Virus record (IMG/VR): IMGVR_UViG_3300009285_000019
Location: 1-45,659 of that record
Reading direction: 5' to 3' (one strand)
DNA: 45,659 nt
Origin: a virus
The position numbers and the translations under genes are program-made. The notes below the pieces were generated by a model. The model did not search any database. It was not told where the DNA came from and worked only from the letters and a program-made list of their open reading frames with translations. How positions within the stretch are numbered: position 1 is the first letter of the stretch; every line of letters starts with the position of its first letter. Shown in pieces: positions 10,852 through 18,861 of this stretch.

Positions 10852-11031
10852 TCGTCATCTCCATCATCTCCATCATCTCCATCATCCCCATCATCCCCAT
10901 CATCCCCATCATCCCCATCATCTCCATCATCTCCATCATCCCCATCATCCCCATCATCCCCGTCATCTCCGTCATCTCCATCATCCCCATCATCCCCATC
11001 ATCTCCATCATCTCCATCATCTCCATCATCC
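10852..11031. repeat. Tandem repeat, 9-mer ccatcatcy, 20 copies with T/C and A/G variant positions.
   Basis: Read directly. It fills the convergent gap between the + strand late operon and the - strand gene ending at 11036. Confidence 0.95.
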
Positions 11032-11035
11032 CCGT

Positions 11036-11938
11036 CTACCTGCCGGTACTGCCGAATCCCCCAGCGCCTCTAGCGGTCTCATCTAGTTTATCCACTATCA
11101 CTACTTGTGGGGTTGATATTGGGATGATTAGTAATTGGGCAAGCCTATCGCCTTTGTCCACCCGATGCTCCACTGGTAGCAGATTTTTGGCCCCAATAAA
11201 TAATTCTCCTCTGTACTCGGCGTCTATCGTACCCTCAAATATCAGTAGTCTCCTATTAAACCACGCAGATGATCTCCCCCTAAGTATGCCCACATACCCA
11301 ACAGGGATAGCCACTGATACCCCAGTAGGAACTAAGGTGAAATCATCAGGCCCGATGATGATAGTTTTAGAGACAACCAGATCCAGGCCAGCGCTAGTTG
11401 GATAGGCCCTTTGTGGTGGGGTGGCCTCCGAAGTCAAGGAGATTAATAGCGGTGGCACACTTAGAGCCGGTCTTGGCAACGTCGTCGTGGAGTTGTCCAG
11501 ATTCGCTGGATTTTTATTAGGTGCCTTAAGCAGTTTTTTCACCACTGCTATTGCTTCGTCCACGGTTTCCACCCACTCAATGCGGGTATCCCTTGTGTAT
11601 GGGCTATTAGTAGGCCCACCAGGACGCCTCGCCACTACAGGAACGCCAAGGGATACCGCCAGCTGGACCTCCCGCACCGTGCCAACAGACCTAAAATCCA
11701 GGTCTGCTATCACTACATCGGATATGGCTAGAATCTGCTCATTAGCCACAATAATGCGCTGTCCAACATCGCCCGGATCTAAGGCCGGGCGACACATGAA
11801 TCCAAGGTCTGGGCGGTAGCAAGTGACGCCAAGCGCTTGGATATCAATAGACACCAAGTGCCGCCAGTTAGACATTGCAACGCCTTCGGCATTTATTGGA
11901 CCTGCCACATATGCTAGCACTTGCGACCTCCTAGGCAT
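11036..11938 (-). CDS. dut: Fusion protein: an N-terminal nucleoside 2-deoxyribosyltransferase / Rcl (DNPH1)-like domain and a C-terminal trimeric dUTPase.
   Basis: All five dUTPase motifs are present in the C-terminal half (SAGLDL; GRSS; GTIDAEYRGEL; GDRLAQLLI; RGAGGFGSTGR). The N-terminal half reads YVAGPI...DVVIADLDFRSVGTVREVQLAVSLGVPVV, which matches the NDT/Rcl Rossmann pattern. Confidence 0.85.
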   Translation of the reverse strand: MPRRSQVLAYVAGPINAEGVAMSNWRHLVSIDIQALGVTCYRPDLGFMCRPALDPGDVGQRIIVANEQILAISDVVIADLDFRSVGTVREVQLAVSLGVPVVARRPGGPTNSPYTRDTRIEWVETVDEAIAVVKKLLKAPNKNPANLDNSTTTLPRPALSVPPLLISLTSEATPPQRAYPTSAGLDLVVSKTIIIGPDDFTLVPTGVSVAIPVGYVGILRGRSSAWFNRRLLIFEGTIDAEYRGELFIGAKNLLPVEHRVDKGDRLAQLLIIPISTPQVVIVDKLDETARGAGGFGSTGR

Positions 11939-11962: not shown

Positions 11963-13093
11963 TTAGTGAAGCTCGTCAAGCAATAACTCAGCAACAGGCA
12001 CGATCACTCCAGGGCCAACACCCACCCACCTCACAGGCGCTCCCACATCTTGCTCCACTTTATCCAGCAACGTGGCAATCTTGCGGCGCATATTTGGAGT
12101 GAACATTTCTGGAGCAACGCCAGCCAATTCTGGAACCTTGTAGTCTACCATAGTGAGACATATTGCATCCGGCTTGCATACATCTCTGAACTTGCGGGCC
12201 AGGACTGGATCCCACTCACCTACCCTGCGTATCCGGTTGGTGACGGTGGTGCGTTCTGGCTGAACCAACCCATTGGTGCGGGCCGCTAACTCTGCCCACG
12301 TTATTTCTTTATACATCCCACCAGAATTGCCCGCTACCCTGATGGGGTATGTCCTCATTACCCCAATGACATGATAGTTCCTTTGCCCACCCAACCCAGC
12401 GTCGTTTAGGGCTTGGGCGGGAGTGATGTCGGCTGATGTGACCTGTGGGTAGTTATTGGAGTAGGTGAGGGATAACCCAAATCCTTGGGTTGACTCCACC
12501 ACGATTGATTGCATACCCACCAGGCGATCCGACACAATGACTCCGTCGGTGTGTAGTGAGTATTGTGTGCGATTCCCCCACAGTGTCGCTGACCTCATAA
12601 TCCTTGCGGCTCTAGCCGCACCCACACCTTCTAGGGTGCTGCCGATCTTGGTCCACATGTCGGCGGACGCCTCAACCATGGCGTGCTCTTCTGTGATTAT
12701 CACAGCCGAGAGATCAATGTGCAGGATTGGTCCGTTATTGGCCGGTACGATCTTGCGATGACCGCTGCGGATGATATTACCCATCTCACTATTAAGAACA
12801 CTAATATTCACCAATGCCCCAGGCCCAAGGAATAACTCAGCGGGGGTGTGCCAAGCGCAAGGGATATGGCGCATCTTAAACGCCGTGCGCTCCGCCATAC
12901 CATTATTGATGGTCATGGTATGGCCGGCGTTTGGCCCCCCAACTCTTACCACAGCTGATGGGTTATAAGCCGATGCGTACCAAGCGGTGAGTTCACCTTT
13001 CCCCTCCGACCCGAACTGTCCTCCCATAATAATGGTGACATCGGGACCAGTTTCTGGCTGGGAAAGTTGTCTTATTGGCATTATTGGCATCAT
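11963..13093 (-). CDS. purZ: Adenylosuccinate synthetase (PurA) family homologue, short and phage-type, PurZ-like.
   Basis: It aligns by eye to E. coli PurA: GGQFGSEGKG vs GTQWGDEGKG, VVRVGGPNAGHT vs VVRYQGGHNAGHT, IGSTLEGVG vs IGTTGRGIG, STQGFGLSL...YPQVTS vs GAQGTLLDID..YPYVTS, and TTVTNRIRRVGEW vs ATTGRRRRTGWL. It is 376 aa versus about 430 aa for bacterial PurA. The start overlaps the upstream gene as ATGA. Confidence 0.8.
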   Translation of the reverse strand: MMPIMPIRQLSQPETGPDVTIIMGGQFGSEGKGELTAWYASAYNPSAVVRVGGPNAGHTMTINNGMAERTAFKMRHIPCAWHTPAELFLGPGALVNISVLNSEMGNIIRSGHRKIVPANNGPILHIDLSAVIITEEHAMVEASADMWTKIGSTLEGVGAARAARIMRSATLWGNRTQYSLHTDGVIVSDRLVGMQSIVVESTQGFGLSLTYSNNYPQVTSADITPAQALNDAGLGGQRNYHVIGVMRTYPIRVAGNSGGMYKEITWAELAARTNGLVQPERTTVTNRIRRVGEWDPVLARKFRDVCKPDAICLTMVDYKVPELAGVAPEMFTPNMRRKIATLLDKVEQDVGAPVRWVGVGPGVIVPVAELLLDELH

Positions 13094-13416
13094 CTTATGC
13101 TCCTTGCTACTAGTAATTCGTGGTATACCGCACCCCGTTCACGCCACGCTTGGAAGCAGTAAAATAGGGCGTCTATAAGCTCCTCTGCCAAGTTGCTTAA
13201 CGGGTCACCCTGAAACGTATCGCCGTAGGTTTTCCGCCCCGCAGTCTGACGGGACACCATAAGGTCACCAACCCATCTTAGGTATTCCATCCTGTCGTCT
13301 GAACTGAGGATACGCCAATCAGACGACAGGACCACACCAACAACGGCGGCATCACGATCACGATATGGAATACCACGATATGGAATACCGCTACTGGTAT
13401 CGCTGTTGCTATGCAT
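13090..13416 (-). CDS. Possible MazG-like / all-alpha NTP pyrophosphohydrolase, a MazZ candidate.
   Basis: The segment RKTYGDTFQG.DPLSNLAEELIDALFYCF resembles the K..YG....E..D...Y helix pair of MazG-like phage proteins, judged by eye only. It overlaps purZ-like by 4 nt. ATG at 13416 is preferred over the track GTG at 13431. Confidence 0.4.
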   Translation of the reverse strand: MHSNSDTSSGIPYRGIPYRDRDAAVVGVVLSSDWRILSSDDRMEYLRWVGDLMVSRQTAGRKTYGDTFQGDPLSNLAEELIDALFYCFQAWRERGAVYHELLVARSIR

Positions 13417-13552
13417 GGTATAGCGCCTCACTTTCCGTTTGTGTCTTTGCCTTCGCCGCTACCCACGTCTCCCGTGCCGCCCCCGCCTCCTTAGCCACCC
13501 ACGCTTCCCACGCCTCCTTCGCCATCGCTCTCAGCCGGTCGTTCATTGTCAT
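13409..13552 (-). CDS. Small ORF not in the track (47 aa, MTMNDRLRAMAKEAWEAWVAKEAGAARETWVAAKAKTQTESEALYHA).
   Basis: Translated by hand. TAGGAGAACCAGCC precedes the ATG at 13552, and the stop overlaps the ATG at 13416 of the next gene. Confidence 0.4.
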   Translation of the reverse strand: MTMNDRLRAMAKEAWEAWVAKEAGAARETWVAAKAKTQTESEALYHA

Positions 13553-13581: not shown

Positions 13582-14046
13582 TCAGTTATTCGCCCGCAAT
13601 GCTTTGTCAGCTATGACCCAACTATCATAGCTGCTCTTGCAAGCTGCGTGCTTGCACGTTTCAAACTCCGGACAGACCCTACCCTGCTCCGACTTGATTT
13701 TAGCGAGGGCTTCTCTGAGCACCTTTATCATCGGGGGAGGACTCACTTGTTCTTTGGGGGGCTGCCGCACACTGTCTACTGCCTGGGTCGTAGACACGGC
13801 CTCGTAAGTCAAATCAAATACATCCGGTTTGCACAGATAAAGCTCCCCCCTCACGCCCCGTATAATCCAATCGCCTATCTGTGCCTTCATGTTACCTTCT
13901 AATGTTTGTATATAGAGGCCGTCAAGCACCCCCGTCCTATCACGACTCAAAGCAAACACAACCCTCGCCCATACGCATATCGCACCAACATTCCATCCCT
14001 GGAAACGCATGGCCTCCACGACTACTGGCCTTTTGCGGTACTTCAT
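13582..14046 (-). CDS. Hypothetical protein (154 aa).
   Basis: ORF track, AGGGAAGG RBS, within the - strand early block. Confidence 0.65.
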   Translation of the reverse strand: MKYRKRPVVVEAMRFQGWNVGAICVWARVVFALSRDRTGVLDGLYIQTLEGNMKAQIGDWIIRGVRGELYLCKPDVFDLTYEAVSTTQAVDSVRQPPKEQVSPPPMIKVLREALAKIKSEQGRVCPEFETCKHAACKSSYDSWVIADKALRANN

Positions 14047-15647: not shown

Positions 15648-15676
15648 ATTATATCACACCTTTAACGGGCTGTCAA
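15648..15676 (-). promoter_or_regulatory. Early promoter copy a: TTGACA-N17-TGaTATAAT.
   Basis: The reverse complement of 15648..15676 reads ttgacagcccgttaaaggtgtgatataat. Confidence 0.7.
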
Positions 15677-18401
15677 TTGGTGGTACTTTATATTGCTTCA
15701 TCTCGCCCCACTTTCTGCCAATCCTCACTTCCACAATAATAGGCACGGGGAATAGCGAACCATTCGGTGTGGCCGCTTCCAACATGGGTGCGAATGTGGC
15801 CGCCACTATACCCGCTATATCTTCATTTACCTCATGTATTACTTCATCGTGAACTTGTAAGATAGGGTTGATGGGGCCGTTTAACTGCGGCGGTGGCAGC
15901 GCCCCCTCCACAGCAGCCATACCAGCTTTCACGATCCCCATGGACGCCGATTGTATTCCACTATTAACAGCCTCCCGTTCACCTTCGGATCTGATCCTTG
16001 GGTTGGTACTACGAATTTGTGGTAGTAGCCTGATACGGCCCCACATATCTCTTATATATCCATACCTGCGGGCTTCGGCCTGCCGTTCCATCCCATACCC
16101 CTTAATCATTGGGTATAATTTGAAATAGTCATCCAGAAATTGCTGGCAACGCTTCTCATCCCAATCAGCAAACGCCCCAGCGCCGAGGGATGATGCCTCT
16201 TCCTCCAGGTAACCCTTAAACCCACGGGCTGATATCCAATATACAGTGCCGAACCCACCACGCTTAGCTATATATCTGCGCCCGTATGGGTTAATGCGAT
16301 GCTCATCTTGTATCACATGTAATGGTACACCCCATATTGCGGCTGCGGTCTCGGCGTGAATGTCACGCCCCTCTGCGAATAGTCGCATCATGCCGCTATC
16401 CTTGCTATCTACGGCAAGCACTCGCATCTCTATTTGTGAATAATCAAACGATACTAATGTCATATTAGGTGAGGCTTCTATACAAGACCTCACCATCCTA
16501 CCTTCCTCATACCTTACTGGAGTGGCAGCGGTATTAGGATCACTATGTTTGTACCGGCCAGTCTCTGTCCCTGCAGGATTAATCCTACCGTGGATGCGCC
16601 ATGTCTCACCACCACCACCACCGCCCCCCATCTTCATTTTATCAAGCATCGGGCCGATGAACGACGCTTGCATGGTATCATAACGCTTATACCGCAATAT
16701 TGTCGGGATGATGGGGTGGTGGGCTTTTATAGGCTCTAGAGCCTCCACGTTTACCTTAGGCCGGCGTTTCACTGGGGTAAGGTATAACGCCTGTATCTGG
16801 TTGCCTGTTATTACTGATCTTACCCCGTCGCTTCCAAATATGACGCTGGCTACTTGGTCGTCCGATCCAACACTGAACATCTTACCAGCTAGTTCGTGGC
16901 ATCTTTTAGCTATATCTTGCATCCTAGCGGCGAACACCGCCTGTAACCCCAATACGGCATATCTATTGACCGGCATGCCGTAGTGCGTCATACGGGCGAC
17001 AAGTGGTAAGGCTTGGATATCGGTCTTATAAATCTCTTCCATACCCCTTTCTATTATGCGTGGCCACAACTCGTTATACACTCTCAACGTAGCGTCTGGG
17101 TCACGAGCCGAGTAATTAATGCTATCACTGCGGTTAATAGATGGGTGAGAAAGGTCAACTGACGGCGCTGGGCCTAACAACCCGCCCATATCATTGTTTA
17201 TTATATTCCACCTAGCTACCCCATCGGCTCCGATGTTGACATCAGCGATGAGCCGCCCAAGCCGCCTACTAAGTTTTGACGAAGCATCCAATCCTTGTTG
17301 CTTAGCCACAGCAGCTGATACCGTGGCGTCACGCACGGCTGGCGTTATCATCTCCGAATAATCCTTCATCTCCATGCCGCACAACTGCCTGGCCAGCAGT
17401 TTGAGTCCAAGGGGCAAATCCTGCAACATCCAAGCCATTATCATGGTGTCGTCAAAATTGCGTTGGTGCGGCGTCACCCCCAACTTCCATAACATAGGCA
17501 GGTCGTACGCTGCGTTATGCATAACGATATGAGATGATGATAACAATTTAGCCAGTGGGTGGCCAATAACGTTGTTGGCTAATACCACTAGGCCCTCACC
17601 CCGACGACAGGACATCTGCACGTATAGCGGTTTATCGCCTGACGCCTGCGCCTCGGTGTCTACAGCTACCACGCAAAATGGGTCATCTTGTTGGAGCATG
17701 TACTCCATAGCGTCGCCAGCACCCACCATCTCATAGTGTTCTTTACCGGCGTGCTCATCTACCACCTCAGTATACGTGCCATCTAGCGCTTTCCTTATTT
17801 GGCCAAAATCCCTATCAACCACCTTCATAAGTAGTTTTCCCCTATCTCTGAACACTGAGGCGGGGTGATAAATGGGTAACACAATGACGTCGCCCAAGTC
17901 ATTATACTTATGGGTGCGTTGTATTCTGCCATGGATCTCCTCCATGGTGATGCGATGGCTATGATCACCAATTATATACTTAGCTGCTGGCACCCCCATC
18001 GCTACAATAATTTTGGGATGCAACATCCGGATCTCACTATCCAGCCACCTATCGGCGCAGAACACACCCTGTTGTGGAGAAGGAGCGAAATCACGCACTT
18101 GCCCACTACCCGCTGGGCGGCACTTACACAGGTTTGTTACCCACACATCATCACGGGATAGCCCGATCCTGCTAAGTTGCCTATCAAACTCTCTGCCTGC
18201 AGGACCTTGGAAAGGCATCCCTGTTTCATCTTCTCGCTGGCCCGGCCCCTCACCCACGAACATTATATTAGCGCTAATTGGCCCAATGCCAGGTACTGGT
18301 CCAGCACACTTGGTCCTAAGGTCACATGCCACACATGCTCTGTTAGGTACCCATAAGGGTAGCTGTTGGATATCTATCGTCATGCCATCACCCGCCACCA
18401 T
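15654..18401 (-). CDS. DNA polymerase, family A (PolA-like) with a 3'-5' exonuclease domain and an N-terminal family-4 uracil-DNA glycosylase-like domain.
   Basis: UDG4 motifs are present (FVGEGPGQREDETGMPFQGPAG; IYHPASV; cysteines CVAC...C..C). Exo motifs are VAVDTE, HNAAYDL and YSARDPDAT. Pol motif A is LVSFDYSQIEMRVLA, motif B is RRYIAKRGGFGTVYW, and motif C is QVHDEV. Confidence 0.93.
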   Translation of the reverse strand: MVAGDGMTIDIQQLPLWVPNRACVACDLRTKCAGPVPGIGPISANIMFVGEGPGQREDETGMPFQGPAGREFDRQLSRIGLSRDDVWVTNLCKCRPAGSGQVRDFAPSPQQGVFCADRWLDSEIRMLHPKIIVAMGVPAAKYIIGDHSHRITMEEIHGRIQRTHKYNDLGDVIVLPIYHPASVFRDRGKLLMKVVDRDFGQIRKALDGTYTEVVDEHAGKEHYEMVGAGDAMEYMLQQDDPFCVVAVDTEAQASGDKPLYVQMSCRRGEGLVVLANNVIGHPLAKLLSSSHIVMHNAAYDLPMLWKLGVTPHQRNFDDTMIMAWMLQDLPLGLKLLARQLCGMEMKDYSEMITPAVRDATVSAAVAKQQGLDASSKLSRRLGRLIADVNIGADGVARWNIINNDMGGLLGPAPSVDLSHPSINRSDSINYSARDPDATLRVYNELWPRIIERGMEEIYKTDIQALPLVARMTHYGMPVNRYAVLGLQAVFAARMQDIAKRCHELAGKMFSVGSDDQVASVIFGSDGVRSVITGNQIQALYLTPVKRRPKVNVEALEPIKAHHPIIPTILRYKRYDTMQASFIGPMLDKMKMGGGGGGGETWRIHGRINPAGTETGRYKHSDPNTAATPVRYEEGRMVRSCIEASPNMTLVSFDYSQIEMRVLAVDSKDSGMMRLFAEGRDIHAETAAAIWGVPLHVIQDEHRINPYGRRYIAKRGGFGTVYWISARGFKGYLEEEASSLGAGAFADWDEKRCQQFLDDYFKLYPMIKGYGMERQAEARRYGYIRDMWGRIRLLPQIRSTNPRIRSEGEREAVNSGIQSASMGIVKAGMAAVEGALPPPQLNGPINPILQVHDEVIHEVNEDIAGIVAATFAPMLEAATPNGSLFPVPIIVEVRIGRKWGEMKQYKVPPIDSPLKV

Positions 18402-18861
18402 ATACAGTAATATCGTGTAATATCACTCTTCCCACAGCATCGGCCACGGATTTTATTGTGGTGCCACCCAACATCTTGCCCGCCGCTGGGATGTATGGAT
18501 GCCCACAGTCTACCCCAACTAGCAGCGCTACCAGTTCTATAGCTGGCACCCCAGCGCTCAGGGCGGCGGATGCCAGCTTACCGACAACCTCAGCCTCTGC
18601 CCTATTACATGCGGTGGTGATGATAATGGCGTGTAGCTTTTCCTCATCGCCCCCATTGGCAACGCTTGATGGTATGGAAGATGATACTTTCACAAGCACC
18701 ATACAGATCTTGCAGATCTTGCCATTTTTGTCCGGTTCACGGCATACAGTAACGTACATTTTGCCGTGGCCAGAATCTACCCTGTAGGTGGTAGATGGCA
18801 GCGTTTCAGGAAGTAGGTCCTCTGATATATGTGGCATAGGTGAGGGTGATCTTTCAACCAT
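18388..18861 (-). CDS. TSCPD-domain-like protein (related to the C-terminal domain of class II ribonucleotide reductases).
   Basis: The segments GHGKMYVTVCREPD..GKICKI...GKLASAALSAGVPAIELVALLVGVDCG...IKSVADAVGRVI follow the TSCPD pattern by eye. It overlaps the polymerase start by 14 nt. Confidence 0.5.
   Translation of the reverse strand: MVERSPSPMPHISEDLLPETLPSTTYRVDSGHGKMYVTVCREPDKNGKICKICMVLVKVSSSIPSSVANGGDEEKLHAIIITTACNRAEAEVVGKLASAALSAGVPAIELVALLVGVDCGHPYIPAAGKMLGGTTIKSVADAVGRVILHDITVYGGG

What the first reader, a model, noticed from the sequence alone, without database searches (positions are those of the whole stretch)
11036..11938. Unusual fusion of a deoxyribosyltransferase/Rcl-like domain to dUTPase
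Seen in the sequence: residues 1 to about 135 follow the nucleoside 2-deoxyribosyltransferase / DNPH1(Rcl) Rossmann pattern (YVAGPI...; DVVIADLD....GTVREVQLAVSLGVPVV, with the conserved Glu). Residues from about 165 to 300 are a complete five-motif trimeric dUTPase.

Established knowledge: Rcl/DNPH1 enzymes hydrolyse dNMP N-glycosidic bonds, and NDTs swap bases on deoxynucleosides.

Inference: because the gene sits next to the PurZ-like gene, the N-terminal domain could clear dAMP or another unwanted dNMP, or salvage deoxyribose. That would make up for the missing DatZ. The function is untested.
Basis: partly seen in the sequence, partly recalled or inferred. Interest (0 to 1): 0.62.

Follow-up and report, generated by a model that had tools for sequence, protein, structure and literature searches.

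The report
DmtZ–DutZ fusion of a Z-DNA phage

Summary
ORF 11036-11938 (- strand) has a C-terminal five-motif dUTPase (PF00692, E 1e-25). Its N-terminal ~140 residues belong to the nucleoside deoxyribosyltransferase/DNPH1 superfamily by profile search, by an AlphaFold model (pLDDT 82) and by Foldseek. The true start is probably GTG 11920, giving 294 aa.

It is not new. Poubanne et al. (NAR 2026, PMC12884076) characterised this architecture as DmtZ-DutZ in Arthrobacter phage Wayne. DutZ converts dATP, dGTP and dUTP to dNMPs. DmtZ cleaves dAMP to adenine and can transfer deoxyribose-5-phosphate onto the Z base. They report 77 fused genes among 98 PurZ0 phage genomes.

A profile built without actinophage sequences hits Wayne, DrRobert, Spocter and Ghobes DmtZ (E 1e-17 to 7e-12). 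The catalytic Tyr10, Asn66, Glu90 and Pro43 are conserved. The gene sits beside a Ser-type PurZ in a complete 45.7 kb genome with no Pfam match to DatZ-type HD, MazG, DUF550, DUF5664 or PurB families.

Differences from the characterised enzymes:
- about 31% identity;
- Asn16 where Ghobes DmtZ has the essential Asp12;
- no Trp lid;
- a deep branch in both the PurZ and Dut trees;
- an unrelated UDG-fused PolA.

Verdict: a divergent new member of a known kind. Interest is modest.

The parts
11036..11938 (-). Longest ORF of the fusion gene (300 aa from ATG 11938, stop at 11036-11038). The probable real CDS is 11036-11920 (294 aa from GTG).
   Evidence: gene callers use the 294-aa form
11927..11932 (-). 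AGGAGG Shine-Dalgarno, 6 nt upstream of GTG 11920-11918.
   Evidence: sequence read
11519..11938 (-). DmtZ-like domain (residues 1 to about 140), NDT/DNPH1 fold. Catalytic Tyr10, Asn66 and Glu90; Pro43; Ser84-Val85-Gly86 phosphate-loop motif; Asn16 at the position of Ghobes Asp12.
11444..11518 (-). Pro/Asn/Thr-rich linker (residues about 141-165). It has no counterpart conserved among relatives and model confidence falls here.
11039..11443 (-). DutZ-like trimeric dUTPase-fold domain (residues about 166-300) with all five motifs.
11963..13093 (-). PurZ (2-aminoadenylosuccinate synthetase type) with GSEGKG, i.e. Ser at the position of PurA Asp13. It forms a deep lineage with L003, weakly sister to actinophage PurZ0.
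13090..13431 (-). Conserved small protein (113 aa; core residues 39-99) whose stop overlaps the PurZ start. Function unassigned; predicted helical hairpin.
15648..15676 (-). Consensus sigma-70-like promoter (TTGACA-17-TATAAT with TG, 12/12) at the 3' end of the PolA gene. It is the only strong candidate upstream of the gene block 15632 to 11036.
   Evidence: pattern match only
15654..18401 (-). Family A DNA polymerase with 3'-5' exonuclease and an N-terminal UDG-superfamily domain. It is the candidate replicative polymerase of the module and is only distantly related to Wayne DpoZ.
10855..11033 (.). 9-bp tandem repeat (about 19.6 copies) starting 3 nt after the stop codon. Copy number differs between assemblies of the same phage.

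Best explanation
The gene encodes a bifunctional DmtZ-DutZ enzyme of a phage that makes 2-aminoadenine (Z) DNA.

Proposed mechanism (steps 1-3 shown only for homologues, step 4 inferred for this protein; none assayed here):
1. The C-terminal dUTPase-fold domain (DutZ) hydrolyses dATP to dAMP + PPi. It also converts dGTP to dGMP and dUTP to dUMP.
2. The N-terminal NDT/DNPH1-fold domain (DmtZ) attacks dAMP with Glu90, positioned by Tyr10 and Asn66. This releases adenine and deoxyribose-5-phosphate, or passes the deoxyribose-5-phosphate to free 2,6-diaminopurine to give dZMP.
3. The dGMP from DutZ feeds the adjacent PurZ. PurZ plus the host adenylosuccinate lyase makes dZMP, which becomes dZTP.
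4. The fusion therefore removes dATP irreversibly, taking the place of DatZ, and supplies the PurZ substrate, taking the place of MazZ. The genome has no recognisable gene for either.

The window's protein is a deep-branching homologue whose exact base specificity is inferred, not shown.
For: Homology to the characterised enzymes:
- BLASTP covers nearly the whole length against DrRobert (query residues 10-300; E 3e-29, 31% identity) and Spocter (residues 4-300; E 8e-22).
- An HMM built only from the window N-domain and metagenomic relatives hits DrRobert at 1.2e-17, Wayne DmtZ-DutZ at 4.7e-17, Spocter at 1.8e-15 and Ghobes DmtZ at 7e-12.

Fold and active site:
- The fold is DNPH1/Rcl/NDT. The BFVD structure search also returns the NDT-like proteins of Gordonia phages Archimedes and Ghobes.
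- Tyr10, Asn66 and Glu90 align with Ghobes Tyr6, Asn77 and Glu103. Asn rather than Asp at the middle position is the DmtZ peculiarity noted in the paper.
- Pro43 is invariant.
- Six residues before the Glu there is Ser, as in the Rcl/DNPH1 4fyh alignment, and never Asp in any of 48 family members. Asp occupies that position in the 7m5h NDT alignment.

Dut half:
- It groups with 13 other PurZ-context or fused dUTPases against 8 canonical ones, with support 94/90.
- It shares the clade's GRSS and GELF signatures.
- Its best database hit is the Dut of a PurZ-carrying Micrococcus phage.

Context:
- PurZ is adjacent. The same gene order occurs in the relative L003.
- NDT-dUTPase-PurZ clusters occur on the metagenomic contigs L006, L007 and L009.
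- The complete genome has no Pfam match to HD, HD_3, YfbR-like, MazG, DUF550, DUF5664 or Lyase_1.

Biochemistry of the homologues: PMC12884076.
Against: - No activity data exist for this protein.
- Identity to the characterised enzymes is only about 31% overall. The N domain alone finds nothing in phage genomes by tblastn.
- Residue 16 is Asn, whereas Ghobes Asp12 is required for activity (D12A and D12R are inactive) and was proposed to select adenine.
- The Trp lid (Ghobes Trp124; SW in Wayne) is replaced by Ser-Pro-Tyr.
- Two of the six DutZ signature columns I derived (Trp216, Thr225) are not shared.
- The branch joining the window clade to the other PurZ-context Duts has 94/90 support and rests on only 8 canonical sequences.
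- Nothing here shows that this phage's DNA actually contains Z.
Confidence: 0.82

Rival explanations
1. Same architecture but changed chemistry. Because Asp12 is Asn16 and the Trp lid is absent, the N domain may act on another dNMP (for example dGMP, or both purines). Alternatively it may work mainly as a transferase or salvage enzyme rather than a dAMP-specific hydrolase.
For: - Asn occurs at this column only in the window clade and one other sequence; 38 of 48 relatives have Asp.
- D12A and D12R abolish activity in Ghobes DmtZ.
- Other members in PurZ contexts carry Arg there, as Rcl does (L009). The position therefore varies between lineages.
- A preprint found a Z-phage NDT acting on nucleosides, with dA preferred over dZ and dG.
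Against: - An Asn side chain can still accept a hydrogen bond from the adenine 6-amino group, so adenine selectivity may survive (my inference).
- All other catalytic and phosphate-loop residues are kept.
- The genome has no other recognisable dATP-clearing enzyme, so selection for dAMP/dATP removal should be strong.
Confidence: 0.13
2. An ordinary housekeeping dUTPase (dUTP only) that happens to be fused to an NDT-family domain of unrelated role, with no specific link to Z-DNA synthesis.
For: - All five canonical dUTPase motifs are intact.
- Wayne's fused enzyme still prefers dUTP kinetically.
- NDT-fold proteins also occur in many phages and giant viruses not known to carry PurZ.
Against: - Every relative of the fusion or of its N domain with readable context lies beside PurZ.
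- A typical family member finds only PurZ-phage fusions among 50,697 phage records.
- The Dut half groups with PurZ-context Duts.
Confidence: 0.04
3. The N domain is catalytically dead and serves only as an oligomerisation or regulatory module for the dUTPase trimer.
For: The single-sequence Pfam score is below the family cut-off, and one essential residue differs from the characterised enzyme.
Against: The nucleophile Glu, the Tyr, the Asn, the Pro and the Gly-Thr loop are all conserved across a family with a mean column identity of only 16%. That pattern indicates purifying selection on the active site.
Confidence: 0.02

Closest known systems
DmtZ-DutZ of Arthrobacter phage Wayne (ALY10777.1), characterised in Poubanne et al., Nucleic Acids Res 2026 (PMC12884076)
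   Same: - Same two-domain order (NDT-like N-terminal, dUTPase-like C-terminal) with a flexible linker and similar length (306 versus 294-300 aa).
- Homologous in both halves.
- Same catalytic triad with Asn at the middle position, the same Pro, and a Ser six residues before the Glu.
- Same gene neighbourhood downstream of PolA and PurZ.
   Different: - About 31% identity.
- Asn16 in place of the Asp.
- Ser-Pro-Tyr in place of the Ser-Trp lid.
- The Dut half lacks the clade's Trp216.
- Wayne also has a DUF5664 dATP/dGTP diphosphatase; the window genome has none.
- Wayne's PolA is only 24% identical over 190 residues to the window's UDG-fused PolA.
- The host is an actinobacterium for Wayne and unknown for this groundwater phage.
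Separate DmtZ (AOE44404.1) and DutZ (AOE44406.1) of Gordonia phage Ghobes
   Same: Both are homologous to the two halves of the window protein. The mutagenised residues Tyr6, Asn77, Glu103 and Pro57 map to Tyr10, Asn66, Glu90 and Pro43.
   Different: Ghobes has two genes rather than one. Its Asp12 and Trp124 are not conserved in the window protein.
DNPH1/Rcl (2'-deoxynucleoside 5'-phosphate N-hydrolase; PDB 4fyh, 8rpt) and MilB
   Same: These are among the best structural matches. They share the Tyr/Glu catalytic pair, the Ser-x-Gly loop before the Glu, and a dNMP rather than nucleoside substrate class.
   Different: - 15-19% identity.
- Asp rather than Asn in the triad, and Arg at the position of Asn16.
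- They are stand-alone cellular or antibiotic-pathway enzymes with different base preferences.
DatZ (HD dATP triphosphohydrolase) plus MazZ/DUF550 of PurZ phages such as S-2L and PhiVC8
   Same: Same physiological job: remove dATP and supply dGMP for PurZ.
   Different: Unrelated folds, and absent from this genome. This is functional convergence, as the 2026 paper argues.

Membership tests
Nucleoside 2-deoxyribosyltransferase / DNPH1 superfamily (Pfam PF05014 and relatives) | Flavodoxin-like alpha/beta fold of NDT/DNPH1 | tested here: met
   AF2 model with pLDDT 81.8. DNPH1, Rcl, MilB and NDT structures make up the bulk of the top 50 Foldseek PDB hits, with target-normalised TM of 0.69-0.72 for the top three.
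Nucleoside 2-deoxyribosyltransferase / DNPH1 superfamily (Pfam PF05014 and relatives) | Sequence match to the family model | tested here: inconclusive
   The single sequence scores 15-17 bits against a cut-off of 28.8. However, 30 of the 33 aligned sequences hit PF05014 (best 1.7e-12), and their profile hits PDB NDT and DNPH1 at 1e-8 to 1e-6.
Nucleoside 2-deoxyribosyltransferase / DNPH1 superfamily (Pfam PF05014 and relatives) | Catalytic triad: Tyr at the end of strand 1, Asp/Asn, and the nucleophile Glu | tested here: met
   Tyr10, Asn66 and Glu90 are present. Glu is invariant and Tyr and Asn are at least 90% conserved in 49 aligned rows.
DmtZ (dAMP N-hydrolase / deoxyribose-5-phosphate transferase of PurZ0 phages) | Homology to the experimentally characterised DmtZ proteins | tested here: met
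   An independent HMM hits Wayne at 4.7e-17 and Ghobes at 7e-12. BLASTP covers nearly the full length (residues 10-300) at E 3e-29 to DrRobert.
DmtZ (dAMP N-hydrolase / deoxyribose-5-phosphate transferase of PurZ0 phages) | Asn (not Asp) in the triad, plus the conserved Pro57 | tested here: met
   Asn66 and Pro43 are present.
DmtZ (dAMP N-hydrolase / deoxyribose-5-phosphate transferase of PurZ0 phages) | Asp12 (Ghobes numbering): essential, proposed adenine selector | tested here: not met
   The residue is Asn16 in the window and in L003; 38 of 48 relatives have Asp. This lowers confidence in dAMP specificity, not in homology.
DmtZ (dAMP N-hydrolase / deoxyribose-5-phosphate transferase of PurZ0 phages) | Trp124 lid from the partner subunit | tested here: not met
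   The window has Ser112-Pro113-Tyr114 where Wayne and DrRobert have Ser-Trp-Ala. Tyr114 might substitute; this was not tested.
DmtZ (dAMP N-hydrolase / deoxyribose-5-phosphate transferase of PurZ0 phages) | 5'-phosphate pocket without the Asp/Asn that binds the 5'-OH in nucleoside NDTs | tested here: met
   The window has Ser84-Val85-Gly86 before Glu90. Asp is absent at position -6 in all 48 relatives. The pattern matches Rcl's SLGVGYE and differs from DAGVASE in the NDT 7m5h.
DmtZ (dAMP N-hydrolase / deoxyribose-5-phosphate transferase of PurZ0 phages) | dAMP-specific hydrolysis and transfer of deoxyribose-5-phosphate to the Z base | not testable with these tools
   Needs enzyme assays.
DutZ (PurZ0-phage dUTPase-fold dATP/dGTP/dUTP diphosphatase) | Trimeric dUTPase domain with five motifs | tested here: met
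   PF00692 scores 90 bits against a cut-off of 22. The motifs align with E. coli Dut.
DutZ (PurZ0-phage dUTPase-fold dATP/dGTP/dUTP diphosphatase) | Falls in the clade of PurZ-phage dUTPases | tested here: inconclusive
   The window and L003 sit on the same side of a 94/90 branch as 12 other PurZ-context or fused Duts, basal to them, against only 8 canonical sequences. The PurZ context of two of the fused rows (P0014, P0024) was not checked.
DutZ (PurZ0-phage dUTPase-fold dATP/dGTP/dUTP diphosphatase) | Broadened specificity (dATP, dGTP) | not testable with these tools
   The window shares the clade-specific columns Gly221 (GRSS versus PRS) and Leu246-Phe247 (GELF), but not Trp216 or Thr225. 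I derived these columns here; they are not established determinants.
PurZ0-type Z-DNA module (genomic context) | Adjacent PurZ with Ser replacing PurA Asp13; no DatZ or MazZ | tested here: met
   PurZ carries GSEGKG and matches PHROG 1211 at E 5e-64. HD, MazG and DUF550 families are absent from the complete genome.
PurZ0-type Z-DNA module (genomic context) | PurZ belongs to the PurZ0 clade | tested here: inconclusive
   The window and L003 pair is sister to six actinophage PurZ0 sequences at only 82/82 support, on a long branch. tblastn scores favour PurZ0 (1e-45 to 1e-34) over classical PurZ (1e-27 to 1e-23).

The most novel reading that the evidence does not exclude
The window phage and its relative L003 may represent a third, deep lineage of Z-DNA phages, outside the actinophage PurZ0 group and the classical PurZ group. 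In this reading the lineage assembled its own module: a UDG-fused PolA unrelated to either described DpoZ type, a small conserved helical protein in place of DUF5664 or MazZ, and a DmtZ variant with Asn for the essential Asp and no Trp lid. The base specificity or the hydrolase/transferase balance of that DmtZ variant would then differ from the published enzymes.
Probability: 0.2. Interest if true: 0.55.

Novelty: new member of a known kind. Interest (0 to 1): 0.3.

Why it matters
The finding does not open a new question. The enzyme class, its chemistry and its link to PurZ0 were published in 2026.

Its value is comparative:
- It extends the DmtZ-DutZ fusion from cultured actinophages to an uncultured groundwater phage lineage that branches deep in both the PurZ and Dut trees.
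- The same two-enzyme solution recurs in at least three gene arrangements: fused; separate genes; and DUF1599 either fused to the NDT (L006, L007) or encoded as a separate small gene beside it (L009).
- It supplies a natural Asp-to-Asn variant at the residue proposed to select adenine. That variant is a ready-made test of the published docking model.

For annotation, such genes are currently labelled only 'dUTPase' or 'dCTP deaminase', which hides a marker of Z-DNA genomes.

Tried and rejected
Searches that failed or were uninformative for the N domain:
- phmmer of the N domain alone against PDB gave only chance DHFR hits at E about 1.5.
- tblastn of the N domain alone against 50,697 phage records found nothing. 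The 97-99% coverage is therefore carried by the Dut half plus weak extension.
- The word-indexed homologue search found only the window's own protein. With the family profile it found 10 proteins.
- The search for related loci failed on the 33-sequence alignment because no stretch was conserved enough. With three close sequences it gave one locus, L003.

The 154-aa protein (13582-14046):
- I considered that it is the DUF5664 equivalent. This is rejected: there is no similarity to Wayne DUF5664 and no PF18909 match in the genome.

The 113-aa protein upstream of PurZ:
This is not supported.
- There is no Pfam or PHROG hit.
- hhalign against DUF1599 domains gave 1.5% probability.
- The PDB profile search gave only chance hits.
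- Only three close homologues exist.
- The AF2 model is a low-confidence helical hairpin (pLDDT 57), so I did not run a fold search on it.
- Conserved acidic residues (Asp45, Glu49, Glu83, Glu84, Asp87) are compatible with a metal site but prove nothing.

Other:
- Host assignment from PHROG annotation of 20 further ORFs failed because most have no family.
Full report
**1. The observation**

The window is a complete virus record of 45,659 bp with direct terminal repeats. The same phage was assembled from a groundwater metagenome. ORF 11036-11938 lies on the - strand and gives 300 aa from the first ATG.

An AGGAGG sits 6 nt upstream of GTG 11920, and nothing similar precedes ATG 11938. Gene callers chose the 294-aa product. 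Residue numbers below follow the 300-aa ORF.

The C-terminal half is a dUTPase:
- PF00692 at E 1.1e-25 and PHROG 135 at E 2e-44.
- All five motifs align with E. coli Dut.

The N-terminal 150 residues are weak as a single sequence: PF05014 scores 15-17 bits against a cut-off of 28.8, and there is no PDB hit. Deeper methods give a clear answer:
- An exhaustive phmmer search of 1.8 billion representatives found 34 relatives.
- Of the 33 aligned sequences (window N-domain plus relatives), 30 hit PF05014.
- Their profile hits a PDB NDT (7m5h, 1.3e-8), Rcl/DNPH1 (4fyh, 1.5e-6), MilB and BcmB.
- An AlphaFold2 model (pLDDT 81.8, pTM 0.78) returns DNPH1, Rcl, MilB and NDT structures as the bulk of its top 50 Foldseek PDB hits.

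**2. It is already described**

A literature search led to Poubanne et al., Nucleic Acids Res 2026 (PMC12884076). They found that the 'dUTPase' of Arthrobacter phage Wayne has a 177-residue N-terminal extension with an NDT/DNPH1 fold. Gordonia phage Ghobes has the two parts as separate genes.

Their biochemistry:
- The Dut-like part (DutZ) hydrolyses dATP, dGTP and dUTP to the monophosphates, with about ten-fold higher kcat for dATP than dGTP.
- Tyr6, Asn77 and Glu103 form the triad. E103A, Y6A, D12A and D12R are inactive. Pro57 and Trp124 are also discussed.

All 98 PurZ0 genomes they surveyed have dutZ, 85 have dmtZ and 77 have the fusion. A 2025 preprint independently linked NDT and 'dUTPase/NDT dual proteins' to Z-phage contigs.

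**3. Is the window protein one of these?**

- tblastn of the whole protein finds 82 phage records covering at least 80% of it. Of the 40 records listed, 39 are Arthrobacter phages and one is Streptomyces phage Spocter.
- In DrRobert, Wayne and Spocter the hit lies a few genes downstream of a PurA-like gene.
- BLASTP to DrRobert covers residues 10-300 at E 3e-29 and 31% identity.
- The N-domain similarity is too weak for tblastn on its own. I therefore built an HMM from the window N-domain and its metagenomic relatives only and searched the ORFs of all fetched loci. It hits DrRobert (1.2e-17), Wayne (4.7e-17), Spocter (1.8e-15) and Ghobes DmtZ (7e-12).

Residue mapping:

| Ghobes DmtZ | Window protein | Note |
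|---|---|---|
| Tyr6 | Tyr10 | conserved |
| Pro57 | Pro43 | invariant in 49 rows |
| Asn77 | Asn66 | conserved |
| Glu103 | Glu90 | invariant |
| Val98-Gly99 (phosphate loop) | Val85-Gly86 | Ser84 at position -6, as in the Rcl alignment; Asp there in the 7m5h NDT alignment |
| Asp12 | Asn16 | differs; Asn only in the window clade and one other sequence, Asp in 38 of 48 |
| Ser-Trp lid | Ser112-Pro113-Tyr114 | differs |

**4. The Dut half**

- Its best phage hit is the Dut of Micrococcus phage Olihed at 49% identity. That gene lies beside a PurA-like gene.
- Next come the Arthrobacter DutZ sequences at 41-44%, then canonical dUTPases at 38.5% or less.
- In a tree of 22 sequences, the 14 PurZ-context or fused Duts fall on one side of a branch with 94/90 support. 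The window and L003 are basal to the other twelve, which group at 97/97.
- The PurZ context of two fused rows (P0014, P0024) was not verified, and only eight canonical sequences were sampled.
- Columns that separate the two groups include Gly221 (GRSS versus PRS) and Leu246-Phe247 (GELF). The window shares these. It does not share Trp216 or Thr225. These columns are my observation, not established specificity determinants.

**5. Context**

- The neighbouring gene 11963-13093 is a PurZ: PHROG 1211 at E 5e-64, with GSEGKG carrying Ser at the position of PurA Asp13.
- Its tblastn scores favour actinophage PurZ0 (1e-45 to 1e-34) over Vibrio and Acinetobacter PurZ (1e-27 to 1e-23).
- In a 17-sequence tree rooted on E. 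coli PurA, the window and L003 pair (100/100) sits on a long branch, weakly sister (82/82) to the PurZ0 clade (100/99).
- L003, a 7-kb IMG/VR contig, has the same gene order: UDG-PolA, two small genes, an 83-aa homologue of the window's 113-aa protein, PurZ, then the fusion.
- Three metagenomic contigs (L006, L007, L009) carrying other members of the N-domain family show PurZ, then a dUTPase, then an NDT. PolA precedes PurZ on L006 and L007. DUF1599 is fused to the NDT on L006 and L007 and is a separate small gene on L009.
- One 6-kb contig (L008) ends before the place where a PurZ would be expected.
- A typical family member (P0009) finds only the fusions of the Streptomyces phages Hiyaa and Spocter among 50,697 phage records. 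Spocter carries a PurA-like gene beside its fusion; Hiyaa's surroundings were not checked.
- The complete genome has no Pfam match to HD, HD_3, YfbR-like, MazG, DUF550, DUF5664 or Lyase_1. The fusion is therefore the only recognisable dATP-clearing and dGMP-supplying enzyme, and PurB must come from the host.
- A consensus promoter at 15676-15648 is the likely start of the gene block that ends with the fusion.

**6. Mechanism**

Shown for homologues and inferred here:
- DmtZ uses Glu90 as nucleophile, oriented by Tyr10 and Asn66, to release adenine from dAMP. It can also pass deoxyribose-5-phosphate to diaminopurine.
- The dGMP goes to PurZ.

Fusing the two halves should couple dATP hydrolysis to irreversible destruction of the base-sugar bond. 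How a trimeric Dut and a dimeric NDT domain pack together is unknown.

**7. What differs from the published cases**

- Low identity to the characterised enzymes.
- Asn16 and the absence of the Trp lid.
- No DUF5664.
- A PolA that carries an N-terminal UDG-superfamily domain. It is only 24% identical over 190 residues to Wayne's DpoZ and at most 26% identical to the best-matching deposited phage polymerases listed.
- About 51% G+C.
- Most ORFs scanned (20 of 25) lack a PHROG family at the thresholds used. The host is unknown.

**8. Verdict**

The 'unusual fusion' is the common state in PurZ0-type phages and is already published. This is a divergent new member of that kind. It is of modest interest, mainly as a natural variant for testing the proposed adenine-selecting residue and as evidence that the module extends beyond actinophages.

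Noticed in passing
window 10855-11033: A 9-bp tandem repeat (TCATCTCCA, about 19.6 copies) starts 3 nt after the stop codon of the fusion gene. It creates a spurious 'MMEMMEMM' ORF that one gene caller accepted. Other assemblies of the same phage carry about 3, 7 and 15-17 units. It may be a variable-number repeat, or short-read assembly may have collapsed it.
   Followed up: partly
window 13090-13431 (-): A 113-aa protein whose stop overlaps the PurZ start. Its core (residues 39-99) is about 50-70% identical in three relatives and keeps the same position in L003. No family match was found and the AF2 model is a low-confidence helical hairpin. The conserved acidic residues Asp45, Glu49, Glu83, Glu84 and Asp87 might form a metal site. 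A MazG-like role is unsupported.
   Followed up: partly
window 15654-18401 (-): The family A DNA polymerase carries an N-terminal UDG-superfamily domain (PF03167, E 6.5e-28); L003's PolA has a closely similar N-terminal sequence (not scanned against Pfam). The only deposited phage with a full-length match (MW202455, Manatee Spring, 26% identity) has no PurZ in the region shown but encodes pyrimidine hydroxymethylase and thymidylate synthase genes. UDG-fused PolA may therefore mark phages with modified DNA in general. A 2025 preprint also found PF03167 enriched on Z-DNA contigs.
   Followed up: partly
L006 10001-10720; L007 6808-7488; L009 1745-2745: In other metagenomic PurZ clusters the DmtZ-like domain is fused to, or preceded by, a DUF1599 ('nucleotide modification associated domain 1') module instead of a dUTPase. 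One relative (P0034) carries a DUF5664-type N-terminus. These domain combinations did not appear in the parts of the 2026 paper I read.
   Followed up: partly
window 13582-14046 (-): A 154-aa protein matches PHROGs 419 and 1810 (function unknown) and, weakly, PHROG 4159, which is annotated 'nucleotide pyrophosphohydrolase'. It is not similar to Wayne DUF5664.
   Followed up: partly
window 18388-18861 (-): A 157-aa protein with a TSCPD domain (PF12637, E 5e-11) lies immediately upstream of PolA. This domain is usually found in or near ribonucleotide reductases.
   Followed up: no
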